DNA of 46,255 bases, the filler included, from Jimgerdemannia flammicorona (Eukaryota), in assembly GCA_003990765.1 (NCBI GenBank). It is 2 parts of 2 records of this genome, joined end to end, with 100 filler letters (N's around TTAATTAATTAA, not from the genome) between each part and the next. Parts side by side here need not be neighbours in the genome. Positions count along the whole stretch, not along the records: positions 1 to 23,084 come from RBNJ01001162.1; 1 more part is not named here. One strand, written 5' to 3'. The notes under the pieces were generated by a model. That model saw only the letters and a list, made by a program, of their open reading frames with translations, had not been told where the DNA came from and did not search any database. Shown here in pieces: positions 1 through 23,184 of this stretch; position 1 is the stretch's first letter; each line of letters begins with the position of its first letter. The translations under genes and the position numbers were made by a program.

Positions 1-340
1 TTTTTCATCTTCCAAACCGTTGAAAATGAATGAGAAACTACTAACGGTGGCTGTCGCGTCAGAGCCATCGTGTTTTCTCTTCTTTTTATTTCCCCTTGCG
101 TGTTTAGCATACGTTTGTGTCTCACTTTGTGTTCATTGATTACCTTGATCAGCGACTCTCATCACTGTTTTCACTCCTTTCACTCCCCTTTCTTTCCCCT
201 CACGCACTCAAAGGGTTGCGAGCGGTAAACGGAGTCGTTTTTTATCTTATGGGAGACGGGAGGGGGAATTGCGCTGCCACGCGATCTTGGTGGTGCGTTT
301 TTTTCACCTGGAACAAACAAACGCAATGGTGGCATTTCAG

Positions 341-720
341 TGTCGGTAACGCCACCGACGGTAATTTGGCGCAAGAAGTCTCAAAAGGACATTGCAAGCA
401 GTCTCGAAGGCCTCAAGGGTAGCTCATTCTCACTCGTCGCTCGGCTGGAGATCAGGTAATCTACTTTAATATAAAACGACACGCGTAAATCGACACTAAC
501 CGTCTCGTTCGTCCGAAAGAAGGACAGCCACCCTGGGTGGTAGATGTGGGTGCAAATCCCACGCGAGATTGCAGTAATTACGCGTGTAAAAGTAAAAACA
601 AGAGCACATCCGTGTCCGTTTGTTGACTCGTCATTCTCACCCTTTTTCGTTTCATATTCCCTCCACCCCTCTTATAGCACCTCGCCCCTTCAAGAAGGCA
701 CGATCACCTTTTACCAGTAA
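341..720 (+). CDS. Putative terminal exons of an unidentified gene (341-455 joined to 678-720)
   Basis: Acceptor ttcag| at 340, donor |gtaatc at 456, pyrimidine-rich acceptor cttatag| at 677. The joined frame reads ...SVTPPTVIWRKKSQKDIASSLEGLKGSSFSLVARLEISTSPLQEGTITFYQ*. CpG-rich, gene-like composition. No firm homology. Confidence 0.3.
502..570 (+). ncRNA. tRNA-like cloverleaf (non-canonical, probably not a translating tRNA)
   Basis: Acceptor stem GTCTCGT(502-508)/GCGAGAT(563-569); D arm GTCC-GAAAGAA-GGAC; anticodon arm GCCAC-CCTGG-GTGGT with a 5-nt loop; variable region AGAT; T arm GTGGG-TGCAAAT-CCCAC. Arm spacing is that of a tRNA, but the D-loop GG, U33 and TTC are missing. Confidence 0.7.
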
Positions 721-1273
721 ACTTCGAAGAGGCAATAAAAATTATTGACTCCGATTGGTAAGTTGGTGCAGTTATTGGAGTCCCTCGTGTATATATGTAA
801 GTGTGCGAGGCCGTGATTTTTTTTTTTTTTTTTTTACTCTCTCGTTTTGAGGTGCCATTTTCGTTAATGGAAGTATTCATTTTCGCCACATCACTAGTCC
901 TACGCCTCCGGCTTCTTGAGCGGAAAAATATCCCTTCATCTTCTAATGTCTTTACGGCATTCCGCCTCAACAGCGTATCGTCGTTGAGATTCTTGTATAT
1001 ACATTATGCCTAAGAGGTTTATTGGCACATTGCATATATAGGTAAAGTGTTAAGAGTGCCTTGGGTTGACATCACAATTATCGGGACAACTGCAGCATCA
1101 TGCCGACGCCTGCGCAAGTGACCACGTCCAAATGGCAGTCTCTCGCCGTGTGGCTATTAAATTTTATGTCCTGTTTGCGCACTTCAGTGTCGTACAGGCG
1201 AAACACGAAAGGCAAGGTAGGTGTCGCTTCCGATATAAATGTTCATGGTTCCTAGCAAGGCATGTTGGTTGGT

Positions 1274-3389: not shown

Positions 3390-4735
3390 AGGTAATTGAT
3401 ATATACTAGTGTCTTCAGGATTTATCTATCTATGCTTCCTAAATAGATACTGATTTCTTTGATATTATACATATACAAGATAAGATCTCTCCTATTTAGG
3501 CTCTAGTTTGATAATAAAGTTTGTTTCAATTATACTTCTCCAGACTAGTACTTGATCTTCAATCTTGATCTTTTAATCTTCTACTTCTGATTATAGTACT
3601 TCTTTTATCTTTCTTAAGTCTTAATTATCTGAGCTTAGGCTTGATTGTGTAATATTCTGTCTTTTTGAAGAGATCTCTGAGGTTTTTATAATTAGTAGTT
3701 CTAATTCTTTTGATAAATATTATCTTGAATAGTTTTTATTTAGTAGAGATAATAGAGATATTCTGAATGTTCCATAAGATCTTAGATAAGTAGAGGTCCC
3801 AGGTAGTAGAATTAACTCAGATATGTTCTTTCTTGATAGTCTAGTTTATTCATTCTTGGTCAGAAATAAATTCTTCTGAAGATCTGTATCTGAGTATGAG
3901 GCCATAGAGGAGGTTTACAATAGTCAAAATATTAGTAATTTCTATTAGAAAAGCTTTACAAATACTAGGATATATTTGTTCCTTCTTAGTATAACTGATA
4001 GAGGTCTAATAATATCTACTCTCTATCTCTGAAAGATATTGTCTAGTGGTATGATTAGTTATAGTATTGCTTGATAGTTCTTCTTTCTTTAATACTTCTA
4101 GCAGATATTATATTTCTTAAATATATCTCTGACTTATGTTCTGAGATTGAGCTAATATTGGTATATTATTTGTAGCTTTTCTTTTATATTTATCTATCCT
4201 TAGTACACTTTCTGGTATTCTTTTTAGATGAGGTCTTTTTGTATTTTAGTAGTTATGAGAGTCTTCTTTAGAGTATAGTTCATTAGTATATTCTTCTTCT
4301 AGTTTATTAGAGTTGGCAGAAAAATATATTAAGCTTTTCCTAGTTTATAGATAATAGTGATTTGTAATTCTATAGAATAAAGATCTAGTGGATAAGAATT
4401 TCAGTAGGTTTCTTATAGTTGAATAGCTATTTGAGAGATTATCAGAGTAAATCTTTTTCTAATAAGATAGTACTTGAATAGAGTAACTGTCTATATGATT
4501 ATAAGAAATTTCAGTTTAGTGCTACCATAATTGATTTGTTACTAATTAATAGCTAGCTTATATAAGCTATTATATAGTACTATTAGTCAGATTCTTCTTG
4601 GACTAGAACTGCTCTAAGGCCATCTTTGAAAGTATCTATATATAAGATAAATAGCTTCTATAGGTTGGGCTATATAAGAATTAGTATTGTAGTTATATGA
4701 TACTTGAATTTTATAAAGGTCTATTCACTACTAAT
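3390..4735 (-). mobile_element. Degenerate Ty3/Gypsy RNase H-integrase relic (same family as 19074-23084)
   Basis: Colinear nucleotide similarity to ~21150-22600 (e.g. 3541 cagactagtacttgatcttcaatcttgatc vs 21270 caaactaggacttgatctccaatcttgatc; 4610 tgctctaaggccatctttgaaagtatc vs 22488 tgctcctaggccatctttggaagcatc). Confidence 0.8.
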
Positions 4736-9791: not shown

Positions 9792-10033
9792 TATAATGGT
9801 GACCCCAGAATGATGACATCAGCACAGGAGACAGCCTTTCTTTACAAGCCACCAGATCGGAGTACAAGAAGATCATACGGCATACAAGATGAGCAATGAT
9901 GACCAATTGTGAGTCATTATGACCACAGCACAAGCATCCTGAAGAATATAAAAGAAGGATCAAGGAACCGCAGTAGCAGCAACCAACAAGAACCATCAAT
10001 CCCAAAATAGCTCAAAGACTTACCACAAACAAA

Positions 10034-10882
10034 ATGTCTGCTGCCCACCAAACCTCAAGGTCAAGGAATCATCAAGGTATCTTGGTTGAGGAAAGGATGT
10101 TCTAAGACATCAGAAGAGCCATGAGGACCTGCTCAAGAAGGACTCCTAGTGTTAATCTGGGTACTGCAGACCTCTATCACTTCATTCTCTACCACCGCGA
10201 AATGGAAACAAGGATCACCATTGCCACTGAATACCTCCAAATGTGGCAGGAATACGAAATAGGAAACCTCCTCTGCCGGGAGTTCCCACAGGCCAGCCCC
10301 CAAGAGCTACAAGACGCCACTCTCATAGACCTACATGAGGTAAGGACAGCAAAGAAGATCCATCAGATCTTCAGGCATGCACCATGGTCGATCCCCAACT
10401 TGGAGTATGTTAGAGTCTCAGACTTCAGAGACCTGTCATCCCGCCATATCAATGCACTAGAAGCCAGGGTAGCCACAGAAGCCCAGTCTACCATCACTCT
10501 CAACAGCGAAGAAGTAGAAGACTTCTGGCACTCTATTCTTTAGAACAACCCAGACCAATTCCTGCAAGGATTGATCTCAGTATTCCAAGGCCCAAGCATC
10601 CAGGTCAGATCTCCTCAAGACCCCACATTTGTTCCTTATTTTGTAGAAGAGAACCTCATAGACTGGAGAGCTCCAGACCTTGTTCCTGATTTTCCCACCA
10701 CAGCCAAACGTGATGACGTCATCGATGACGTCATCCCATGTGACATACCATGCAAAATACACGAAACTTATGACAATGAAGTATACGAGACACGTGGCCT
10801 GCATGACGAATTCGCAGACCTCATCTCCTTCAGTGATGATGATGATGATGAAGCTCCCATGGTCCTGAACTTTCTGCTCTAA
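10034..10882 (+). pseudogene. LTR-encoded accessory ORF (~282 aa, HTH-like helical domain plus acidic tail)
   Basis: A single frame runs from ATG 10034 to TAA 10882. Its two internal stops (10103 TAA, 10541 TAG) are CAA and CAG in the 3' LTR copy. Confidence 0.8.
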
Positions 10883-10889
10883 GTTCTTT

Positions 10890-11023
10890 GTTACACTGGA
10901 TAATGCCAGCACTGATATTCTCATGTAACACTGGATAATGCCAGCACCAGTATTCTGAGGTGATATGAAATTATTCCAGCACTGGCATTTTGATGTGATA
11001 CTAAATAATGCCAGCCCTGGAAC
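10890..11023. promoter_or_regulatory. Four 35-bp tandem units, each with a palindromic core (AATGCCAG-nn-CTGGCATT), upstream of the LTR TATA box
   Basis: CCAG cores at 10906, 10941, 10976 and 11011 give an exact 35-bp period. The array is repeated at 18021-18153. Confidence 0.75.
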
Positions 11024-11346
11024 TTAGTAGTTTTAGTTATTGGAATTTATATTTAGCTTTATATCTTAGCAACCATTGAATTATATTTTGTATAAATACC
11101 TCTCTTATTTTCTCTGAAATAAAGTCAGTCAAGTTTGAGTCAAGTTCCAGTTTCACTTATACACACTTCCTTGCAAGCAATCTAAGAGATAACAAGACAG
11201 TTAAAGATAAAATTTTTGAGGACTATAAGACCTTGGGAAGGTACTCTAATAAGAACTTGCTTATAACAACTTGAGTTAGTCTAAGAGATACACCTTGAAG
11301 AGAATCTGGCATATTTGAAGGACTCAGCGACCACTACGTGACAACT

Positions 11347-11363
11347 TGGTGCCCATTGGCTGG
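11347..11363 (+). promoter_or_regulatory. Primer-binding site (tRNA identity not determined)
   Basis: TGGTGCCCATTGGCTGG begins 3 nt after the LTR-terminal CA. TGG is complementary to the tRNA CCA end. Confidence 0.75.
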
Positions 11364-11470
11364 TGATTCAAGACAAATTCCTCACTTTTAAGCTGAAAAA
11401 CAAATAACCCCCACAACAACTACCCTGACTACAAGAGTCACCCCCTGCAAGAATTCAAGACAAGATAGAA

Positions 11471-22162: not shown

Positions 22163-23084
22163 TGGAGCTGGCAGGAAAGTACATCAACATTGTTGTGGGC
22201 TTTCCCTGCTTTGTGAATGATGGTGATTTTGTAATCCTGAAGGATAAGGATCTAGTGGGCTAAGATTCCAGCAGGTTCCTTGTGGTTGAATAGCCATTTG
22301 AGGGCTGCATGATCTGTGATCAGGGTGAACCTTTTTCCAATGAGGTAATGCTTGAACAGGGTAACTGCCCATATGACTGCAAGGTATTCCAGTTTGGTGC
22401 TGCCATAGTTCATCTGCTGCTGATTGGTAGCTCTACTTGCATAAGCTATCACATGGTGCTGTTGGTCAGGTCCTTCTTGGGACAGTACTGCTCCTAGGCC
22501 ATCTTTGGAAGCATCTGTATACAAGATGAATGGCTTCTGTAGATTGGGGCACACAAGAATTGGTGCTGTAGTCATGCAGTTCTTGAGTTCTCTGAAGGCT
22601 TTTTCCTGTGATTCTGTCCATTTGAATGGTACTCCTTTCTTGAGAAGGATTCGGATTGGGGCAGAAATTTGGGCAAAGTCTTTGATAAACCTTCTGTAGT
22701 AGGATACTAGCATCAAGAATGATAGTATTTCCTTTGGAGTCTTGGGTACTGGCCAATTGTTGATCTTCTCAGTTTTCTTTGGGTCTGCATGAGTTCCTTC
22801 TTTTGAGACCATGAATCCAAGGAATTTGAGTTTCTGTTTTCCAAAGTAGCATTTCTTTGCATTCAGTCTCAAGTGATTCTTGTGGGTGAGCTTGAAGAAT
22901 TCCTCCAGGTGGTGCAGGTGTTCTTCGAAATTTGCTGAATAGATGTTGGAATCATCTATGTATACAATCAGACAGTAGTGGATCAAGGGGGCATAGACTG
23001 AATTCATCATCCTCTGGAAGGTGGGGGGTGCATTGCAAAGTCCAAAGGGCATTCAGAGGTATTCAAACAGTTTTCCTAGAGCAA
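22159..23084 (-). pseudogene. pol: RT-RNase H of second element (partial)
   Basis: ORF 22252-23052 has RT and RNase H motifs; the C-terminus continues after a stop to ...DVLSCQLQ*. Confidence 0.93.
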
Positions 23085-23184
23085 NNNNNNNNNNNNNNNN
23101 NNNNNNNNNNNNNNNNNNNNNNNNNNNNTTAATTAATTAANNNNNNNNNNNNNNNNNNNNNNNNNNNNNNNNNNNNNNNNNNNN
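23085..23184. other. Assembly gap: 44 N + TTAATTAATTAA linker + 44 N
   Basis: A 100-bp artificial spacer with stops in all six frames. The flanks need not be adjacent in the genome. Confidence 0.95.

What the first reader, a model, noticed from the sequence alone, without database searches (positions are those of the whole stretch)
479..587. tRNA-mimic on an outer stem inside a probable intron
A four-arm cloverleaf (502-570) with all stems intact but non-canonical loops (D loop GAAAGAA, 5-nt anticodon loop cCTGg, T loop TGCAAAT) is enclosed by a perfect 10-bp inverted repeat ACACGCGTAA(479-488)/TTACGCGTGT(578-587). It sits exactly between a branch-point motif (CACTAAC 494-500) and a TGCAG acceptor (570-574), downstream of a donor at 456; a distal acceptor lies at 677. 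Intact stems with altered loops argue for selection on shape rather than pseudogene decay. Inference: an RNA mimic that controls 3' splice-site choice or serves as an RNase P/Z substrate (compare the plant 5S rRNA mimic and mascRNA). The host peptide end (LEISTSPL...FYQ) only weakly recalls Alba/Rpp25 C-termini; that link is speculative.
Basis: partly seen in the sequence, partly recalled or inferred. Interest (0 to 1): 0.75.

Follow-up and report, generated by a model that had tools for sequence, protein, structure and literature searches.

The report
Decayed tRNA-like module in a repeat family
The cloverleaf is real, but it looks like an anticodon-less copy of a tRNA-derived sequence that occurs many times in this soil fungus, so it is probably repeat-family baggage and not a one-off regulator of splicing.

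Summary
Bases 502-570 fold into a four-arm cloverleaf, and a perfect 10-bp inverted repeat (479-488/578-587) encloses it. It is the only 69-nt stretch on either strand whose best fold is a stable cloverleaf.

It is not a callable tRNA. ARAGORN and Rfam find nothing. A loosened ARAGORN call is no better than chance.

The window is from Jimgerdemannia flammicorona or a very close relative; one protein is 100% identical.

Contigs from four public runs show the stretch 394-587 in several diverged copies, some at 20-30 times the local depth. One abundant copy has 8 extra bases in the anticodon loop. Rebuilt from the variant table, it is called tRNA-Arg(CCT) at ARAGORN's default threshold.

Other copies join 455 directly to 678. 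So 456-677 behaves as a GT-AG unit that uses the distal acceptor; no contig joins 455 to 575.

The "host peptide" has no credible homologue.

Best reading: a tRNA-derived core of a multi-copy family, here in a loop-deleted form. A locus-specific splice-control mimic is not supported, and it cannot be excluded without RNA data. Interest is modest.

The parts
502..570 (+). tRNA-shaped cloverleaf. It has a 7-bp acceptor stem, a 4-bp D stem, a 5-6-bp anticodon stem with only a 3-5-nt loop, a 4-nt variable loop, and a 5-bp T stem with a 7-nt loop.
   Evidence: Read. It is the MFE fold. It is the only cloverleaf hit in the 69-nt scans. ARAGORN at default and Rfam do not call it.
479..488 (+). 5' arm of the outer stem, ACACGCGTAA. 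It contains the palindrome ACGCGT.
   Evidence: The relatives' contigs show no listed difference here.
578..587 (+). 3' arm of the outer stem, TTACGCGTGT. Likeness to the abundant paralogue stops right after 587.
   Evidence: In one search, tables 7 and 8, loose ends begin behind 587 in both X1 and X2. The change 577 A>T in relatives would add an 11th pair with A489.
527..541 (+). Shortened anticodon arm. The abundant paralogue has 8 more bases here: +3 after 531, +3 after 533 and +2 after 534.
   Evidence: tables 4 and 5c. ARAGORN at default calls the rebuilt long form tRNA-Arg(CCT).
456..677 (+). GT...AG-bounded 222-nt segment, a putative intron. Some family members lack it exactly.
   Evidence: One search shows GTAATC at 456 and TATAG ending at 677. 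In one search, table 7, X2 contigs run from 452/455 straight into CACCTCGCC.
394..455 (+). Conserved upstream module, the putative 5' exon, shared by all family members seen. It has no protein homologue.
   Evidence: tables 7 and 8: likeness starts at 393-396 in X1 and X2. Searches find no credible protein match.
678..689 (+). Start of the downstream module, CACCTCGCC(CCT), joined to 455 in the copies that lack 456-677.
   Evidence: table 7.
494..500 (+). Branch-point-like CACTAAC. It reads TACTAAC in the relatives (494 C>T).
   Evidence: The motif occurs at chance frequency.

Best explanation
Bases 479-587 are the core of a multi-copy sequence family in this Endogonales fungus. The core descends from a tRNA; the nearest form looks like tRNA-Arg(CCU).

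The window holds a variant that lost 8 bases of the anticodon loop, so it cannot decode. It also carries private C-to-T changes at 508 and 541, each turning a G-C pair into G-U.

The clean cloverleaf is inherited from the tRNA ancestor. It is kept at family level because the tRNA-like core is the best conserved module of the repeat.

Inferred mechanism, not shown: the core serves the repeat itself. It could be a TFIIIC/Pol III B-box site. It could also be a fold recognised by RNase P/Z or by a reverse transcriptase.

The family carries the core inside a GT-AG-bounded 222-nt segment, and other copies lack that segment exactly. So the family has either been copied through spliced and unspliced RNA, or has gained and lost this segment as a unit.

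At this locus the element is most likely a passenger, not a regulator of a host gene.
For: 1. Multi-copy.
- X1 contig 3 covers 396-587 at depth 111, with 22 changed letters and 17 gap letters.
- X1 contigs that are near-identical to the window over 660-1654 have depth 3.3-5.
- X2 has contigs at depth 89, 29, 19 and 13 on 393-587, where unique parts have 2-3.5.
- Five X2 contigs overlap position 421.
- Two further runs, X3 (soil metagenome) and X5 (a second organism), hold diverged copies.

2. tRNA ancestry.
- The long-loop paralogue, rebuilt from tables 3-5c, is called tRNA-Arg(CCT) by ARAGORN at default. At that setting the whole window gives 0 calls.
- By the tRNA numbering and consensus I recall, the fold keeps U8, G18, A21, G53, U54, C56, A57, A58 and C61, and A14 in the relatives.
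- A T arm with the same loop TGCAAAT occurs in a contig where ARAGORN calls tRNA-Thr (L001).

3. The core is conserved more than the upstream flank.
- Against X1 contig 3, the listed differences are 11 substitutions plus 9 deleted letters in 396-501 (106 nt).
- In 502-587 (86 nt) they are 5 substitutions plus the single 8-nt loop indel.
- None is listed in either arm of the outer stem.

4. The short-loop form is shared. X1 contig 4, X2 contig 12 and X3 contig 17 lack the insertion. So the deletion is older than these copies.

5. No host protein can be identified.
Against: - Copy number rests on reading X1 and X2 as DNA. The tool labels them 'RNA? (a guess)'. If they are RNA, depth means expression, although the several diverged variants still show more than one copy.
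- I saw no full-length copies, so the boundaries of the repeat, target-site duplications and the number of genomic sites are unknown.
- 6 of the 22 changed letters of X1 contig 3 and 5 of the 10 of X3 contig 17 are not shown. The conservation contrast is therefore incomplete.
- For X1 contig 4 the listed differences show no contrast: 5 in 479-587 and 6 in 588-708.
- The long form is my reconstruction from a variant table, not a fetched sequence. ARAGORN's fold of it has an A-A mismatch in the anticodon stem and a 9-nt variable loop, so even that form is not a clean tRNA.
- Likeness among copies runs at least 100 nt upstream of the cloverleaf, which a classical tRNA-headed SINE does not do.
- Both stem changes keep pairing and 577 A>T extends the outer stem. 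That fits selection on shape as well as it fits my reading.
Confidence: 0.5

Rival explanations
1. This is a selected tRNA mimic inside a spliceosomal intron. Either it hides cryptic AGs and sets which 3' splice site is used, or RNase P/Z cuts it out to give a small RNA, as happens for mascRNA.
For: - The fold is stable and unique in the window.
- 456-677 behaves as a GT-AG unit.
- Three AG dinucleotides (518-519, 521-522, 526-527) lie inside the D arm and at the start of the anticodon stem.
- The stem differences among copies keep pairing, and 577 A>T extends the outer stem.
- The core is conserved more than the upstream flank.
Against: - The same module occurs in many diverged copies, so it is not tied to one host gene.
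- No host protein can be identified.
- Only the 455-to-678 joint is seen, never 455 to 575.
- The branch-point motif is at chance frequency.
- No double compensatory change was seen, only G-U to G-C on one side.
- The D and T loops lack the G18G19/T-psi-C contacts that shape the tRNA elbow (recalled knowledge). That weakens recognition by RNase P/Z but does not exclude it.
Confidence: 0.15
2. 456-677 is a mobile, repeated intron, an introner-like element. It carries a stable tRNA-like fold and has spread to many sites.
For: - Copies with and without exactly this GT-AG segment coexist.
- At 222 nt, it seems longer than usual for a fungal intron (my recollection; no call measured this fungus's introns).
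- It holds a very stable structure.
- Fungal introner-like elements are described as present in hundreds of copies, longer than regular introns, and with stable predicted structures (abstract of PMC3609843, seen in the listing).
Against: - The copies also share the 62 nt before the donor and 9-12 nt after the acceptor. So the repeated unit is larger than the intron. Introner copies sit in unrelated genes.
- In the abundant form, likeness stops at 587, inside the segment and not at its end.
- No target-site duplication is visible at 455/456 and 677/678 beyond the dinucleotide AG.
Confidence: 0.15
3. The cloverleaf is a chance structure with no tRNA ancestry, sitting in non-coding repeat DNA.
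For: - Rfam gives no tRNA match even at E up to 10.
- ARAGORN calls it only at a setting that makes as many calls in shuffled sequence.
- The inverted repeat and the YACTAAC motif are at chance level.
Against: - It is the only hit among all 69-nt stretches on both strands, and z = -4.1.
- The stem lengths and spacers have tRNA dimensions.
- The long-loop paralogue passes ARAGORN's default.
- The fold is kept in diverged copies.
Confidence: 0.07

Closest known systems
tRNA-related SINEs of fungi (for example the AfuSINE2 families of Aspergillus fumigatus; abstract of PMC5063351, seen in the listing)
   Same: Both have a tRNA-derived module with an almost intact B box. By the consensus I recall, GGTGCAAATCC differs at one position. 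Both occur in several diverged copies in a repeat-rich fungal genome. Both have a decayed or missing anticodon.
   Different: Likeness among copies starts about 100 nt before the tRNA-like 5' end, not at it. I found no target-site duplication and no clear 3' tail. The A box is poor. The module sits inside a GT-AG-bounded segment and within a 10-bp inverted repeat.
Introner-like elements of fungi (abstract of PMC3609843, seen in the listing)
   Same: Both are multi-copy, probably longer than ordinary fungal introns (recalled for this fungus, not measured), strongly structured, and bounded by GT-AG.
   Different: Here the flanking sequence is repeated too, so the intron alone is not the repeated unit.
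mascRNA-type tRNA mimics cut from long transcripts by RNase P and RNase Z (recalled knowledge; no paper read here)
   Same: Both are cloverleaves with a reduced anticodon arm, embedded in a longer Pol II-type context.
   Different: There is no evidence of transcription or processing here. This element is multi-copy. It lies inside a putative intron, not at a 3' end. It lacks the D-loop/T-loop contact bases.
Canonical cytosolic tRNA gene or pseudogene
   Same: The arm lengths, the spacers, and many bases that I recall as invariant in tRNAs are shared.
   Different: The anticodon loop has 3-5 nt. There is no U33, no G19 and no T55. Rfam and default ARAGORN make no call.

Membership tests
tRNA gene (Rfam RF00005 / ARAGORN) | Scores as a tRNA with a covariance model or a dedicated finder | tested here: not met
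   ARAGORN makes 0 calls in the window. Rfam gives no tRNA match in 380-700 at E up to 10. ARAGORN calls it only at -ps80, where shuffles give 11-31 calls.
tRNA gene (Rfam RF00005 / ARAGORN) | 7-nt anticodon loop with U33 and a readable anticodon | tested here: not met
   The loop is CTG, or CCTGG. The only 7-nt reading, CCCTGGG, has C at position 33 and a 4-bp stem.
tRNA gene (Rfam RF00005 / ARAGORN) | Cloverleaf with a 7/4/5/5-bp arm geometry | tested here: met
tRNA-headed SINE | Many dispersed copies | tested here: inconclusive
   Several diverged contigs exist, with depth ratios of about 20-30. The runs may be RNA, and no genome was on hand to count sites.
tRNA-headed SINE | Copies begin at the tRNA-like 5' end, which is the Pol III start | tested here: not met
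   Likeness to the paralogues begins at 393-396, about 106 nt before 502 (table 8).
tRNA-headed SINE | Target-site duplications and an A-rich or simple-repeat tail | tested here: inconclusive
   An A-rich run at 588-601 follows the outer stem. No direct repeat longer than the shared ACGCGT flanks the element.
Introner-like element | Near-identical introns inserted in unrelated genes, with flanks that are not alike | tested here: not met
   The flanks 394-455 and 678-686/689 are shared by the copies (tables 7 and 8).
MITE (miniature inverted-repeat transposon) | Terminal inverted repeats at both ends of the repeated unit, flanked by a target-site duplication | tested here: not met
   The right end fits: likeness to the abundant form stops at 587. 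The left end does not: likeness runs through 479 to 396. No duplication flanks 479 and 587.
mascRNA-like processed tRNA mimic | Cut by RNase P/Z into a discrete small RNA, with CCA added | not testable with these tools
   No RNA run is on record for this stretch.

The most novel reading that the evidence does not exclude
This is a previously undescribed kind of mobile or amplified unit in early-diverging fungi. Its conserved core is an anticodon-less tRNA mimic clamped by an outer stem. The core rides inside a spliceosomal intron. The tRNA-like fold is the functional handle for processing or copying the element. Spliced and unspliced RNA copies have both been written back into the genome.
Probability: 0.12. 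Interest if true: 0.7.

Novelty: new variant of a known kind. Interest (0 to 1): 0.3.

Why it matters
If the best reading is right, this is ordinary repeat biology in a repeat-rich, poorly studied fungal genome. Its main use is as a warning: a perfect-looking tRNA mimic in an intron can be a family relic.

It would matter more if the tRNA-like core proves to be the functional handle of a repeat that carries its own intron. That would link tRNA mimicry, intron gain or loss, and RNA-mediated copying in a lineage where no SINE has been described. One full-text search for SINE + tRNA-derived + Mucoromycota found 0 papers. That is weak evidence of absence from print.

Tried and rejected
- No whole genome is held for this window, so copies could not be counted directly.
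- Scans for relatives:
  - A metagenome scan with a 32-nt core pattern found 0 matches.
  - A 21-nt T-arm pattern found 4 loci.
  - A viral scan with a 20-nt pattern found 7 loci.
  - All 11 loci match the T arm only and are unrelated outside it. One is a predicted tRNA-Thr, and one lies beside four predicted tRNAs.
  - So no sequences were obtained for a covariation test.
- No RNA holder is listed for 200-1100. All laid runs are contigs, so nothing can be said on strand, ends or expression.
- No contig joins 455 to 575. With contigs this shows nothing about absence.
- Earlier notes of this scan hold nothing for this genome or this sequence. The word search returned one unrelated bacterial nested-tRNA note.
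- Host peptide:
  - Pfam finds nothing at E up to 10 for 229-456, 340-456 and 544-717.
  - The word-based search among longer proteins found 13 candidates, none scoring E up to 10.
  - The exhaustive search gave 6 matches between E 3.9e-07 and 6.1e-04. All 6 are made of 3-7 matched stretches. I checked four of the six: two are repeat proteins (SprB repeats; a lipoprotein-repeat protein) and two have no Pfam family. I rejected all 6 as spurious.
- Rfam at loose thresholds on 1-2000 found nothing relevant.
- The bacterial promoter/terminator scan is uninformative for a eukaryote.
- Considered and rejected: on the minus strand, the complement of the cloverleaf's 3' end is preceded by TGCA. That resembles a primer-binding site of an LTR element with read-through into the primer tRNA. 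I dropped this because it does not explain the 455-to-678 joints, and no LTR could be shown at 575 onward within the window.
- Considered and rejected: origin from mitochondrial DNA. ARAGORN's mitochondrial mode calls it, but that mode is very permissive, and the element is 54-57% G+C and lies in a nuclear, retrotransposon-rich context.

Full report
**What is there.** The window is eukaryotic.
- It holds a U6 snRNA match.
- It holds LTR-retrotransposon reading frames: gag zinc knuckle, dUTPase, integrase and RT-RNase H.
- It holds an ABC-transporter exon that is 100% identical to a protein named by its source as from Jimgerdemannia flammicorona, Endogonales.

All coordinates of the finding are correct. 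The RNA minimum-free-energy fold of 479-587 is the 10-bp outer stem enclosing a four-arm cloverleaf at 502-570. Its energy is -42.5 kcal/mol, z = -4.1, and 1 of 200 shuffles folds as well. The opposite strand folds almost as well, z = -3.6.

**Is it more than chance?** The parts taken alone are not.
- 10-bp inverted repeats at this spacing occur at 7 places in the window. Shuffles give 1-10 hits.
- YACTAAC occurs 7 times against 10 expected.
- ARAGORN calls the cloverleaf only at -ps80. There it makes 16 calls in the window and 11-31 in shuffles.
- ARAGORN at default and Rfam find no tRNA.

The whole is unusual. Among all 69-nt stretches of both strands, 502-570 is the only one whose best fold is a cloverleaf with a closing stem of at least 6 pairs and energy of -25 kcal/mol or lower. 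I chose those cut-offs after seeing the element.

**Relatives.** No genome is held. The metagenome and viral scans gave only unrelated T-arm matches. The one informative source is the laying of contigs from four public runs on 1-2000 at 80% likeness.

Runs X1 and X2 carry contigs that are near-identical to the window over 660-1654, at depth 2-5. One of them has a 103-bp gap at 795-897. On 393-587 the same runs carry diverged contigs at much higher depth:
- X1 contig 3 covers 396-587 at depth 111, with 22 changed letters and 17 gap letters.
- X2 contigs have depths of 89, 29, 19 and 13.
- Five X2 contigs overlap position 421.
- X3 (a soil metagenome) and X5 (another organism) hold further diverged copies.

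So the stretch belongs to a family with several members. If X1 and X2 are DNA, as their even low depth over seemingly non-genic sequence suggests, the abundant form has roughly 20-30 copies. The tool only guesses 'RNA?' for these runs, so the copy number is an inference.

**What the relatives show.**
- All other copies read 508 C and 541 C, which makes G-C where the window has G-U. Most read 515 A and 517 G, both in the D loop.
- Several read 577 T, which would add an 11th pair to the outer stem.
- Several read 494 T, which gives TACTAAC.
- Neither arm of the outer stem has a listed change.
- Against X1 contig 3, the listed differences are 11 substitutions and 9 deleted letters in 396-501. In 502-587 they are 5 substitutions plus one 8-nt indel. 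Six of its 22 changed letters are not shown.
- Against X1 contig 4, the listed differences show no such contrast: 5 in 479-587 and 6 in 588-708, with 9 not shown.

The 8-nt indel lies in the anticodon loop. The abundant form has 3 + 3 + 2 extra bases after 531, 533 and 534. X1 contig 4, X2 contig 12 and X3 contig 17 share the window's short loop.

I rebuilt the long form in a script from these tables. ARAGORN at default calls it tRNA-Arg(CCT), 77 nt. Its fold has an A-A mismatch in the anticodon stem and a 9-nt variable loop. The rebuilt short form, like the window, is not called at default.

By the tRNA consensus I recall, the fold keeps U8, G18, A21, G53, U54, C56, R57, A58 and C61. It lacks G19, T55 and U33.

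**The intron question.** X2 contigs run from 452/455 directly into CACCTCGCC, the sequence that follows AG at 677 (table 7).
- The segment 456-677, which begins with GT and ends with AG, is therefore exactly absent from some family members.
- If the runs are RNA, this is splicing at the distal acceptor.
- If they are DNA, copies with and without the intron coexist.
- No contig joins 455 to 575. Contigs cannot show absence.
- Likeness among copies also covers 394-455 and the first 9-12 bases after 677, and upstream of 394 the copies differ. So the repeated unit is larger than the intron.

The putative exon has no credible protein relative. The host gene remains unidentified and may be non-coding.

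**Reading.** The most economical account is a tRNA-derived core carried by a multi-copy family. The window's copy is a loop-deleted, slightly decayed member. The intact stems come from ancestry plus family-level conservation of the core.

What the core does for the family is inferred only. It may be a TFIIIC/Pol III B box, or a fold for RNase P/Z or a reverse transcriptase.

It fails the tested criteria of each known kind I considered:
- It is not a tRNA gene.
- It is not a classical tRNA-headed SINE, because likeness starts about 106 nt upstream of the cloverleaf.
- It is not a MITE, because the left boundary is not at the inverted repeat.
- It is not an introner-like element, because the flanks are shared.

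I therefore file it as a variant of tRNA-derived repeats, not as a member of any of these kinds.

It loses its main argument, that intact stems at a unique site imply selection there.

**Literature.**
- I saw only search listings and abstracts: PMC3609843 on introner-like elements and PMC5063351 on fungal tRNA-related SINEs.
- A search for SINE + tRNA-derived + Mucoromycota found 0 papers.
- A search for tRNA-like + intron + splice site + branch point + RNase P found 9 papers, none on an intronic tRNA mimic in fungi, judging by their titles.
- No paper was read in full, and no supplement was consulted.

Noticed in passing
window 18412-18560 (compare 11295-11323): The U6 snRNA match (18427-18539, 78 bits) sits inside the 3' LTR copy of a retrotransposon. 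It is flanked by a duplicated 15-bp TTGAAGAGAATCTGG. The 5' LTR has that sequence once, with no insert. It looks like a U6-derived retro-insertion with a target-site duplication. The insert ends in GTAAGT after a 3' part that does not look like the usual U6 end.
   Followed up: partly
window 9794-18594: An LTR retrotransposon has long terminal repeats of about 1.5 kb at 93-98% identity (9794-11343 and 16972-18594). Inside it are gag with a zinc knuckle, a dUTPase domain and an integrase. A second, more diverged element is on the minus strand: RT-RNase H at 22252-23052, with 74-80% alike pieces at 3474-4726.
   Followed up: no
window 110-183: Run X2 holds a contig alike to this stretch at depth 461, where unique sequence has 2-3.5. 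It is another, more abundant repeat just upstream of the finding.
   Followed up: no
window 795-897: A contig of run X1 that is otherwise identical to the window skips these 103 bases, which include the T run at 817-838 (table 5). It is probably an insertion/deletion difference between strains. It is not a GT-AG intron.
   Followed up: no
window 23085-23184: Runs of N flank TTAATTAATTAA. This is an assembly gap with a linker, not biology.
   Followed up: no
window 20256-20388: A tandem array of a 19-bp unit (consensus near GTGTGTCCACAGGACATGA), about 7 copies.
   Followed up: no
L002/L004/L007/L011 and L003/L005/L008 (metagenome and viral contigs): The 20-21-nt T-arm string of the finding recurs exactly in unrelated phage-like contigs. 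In most of them ARAGORN calls no tRNA at the match. These may be tRNA-like T arms of their own.
   Followed up: no
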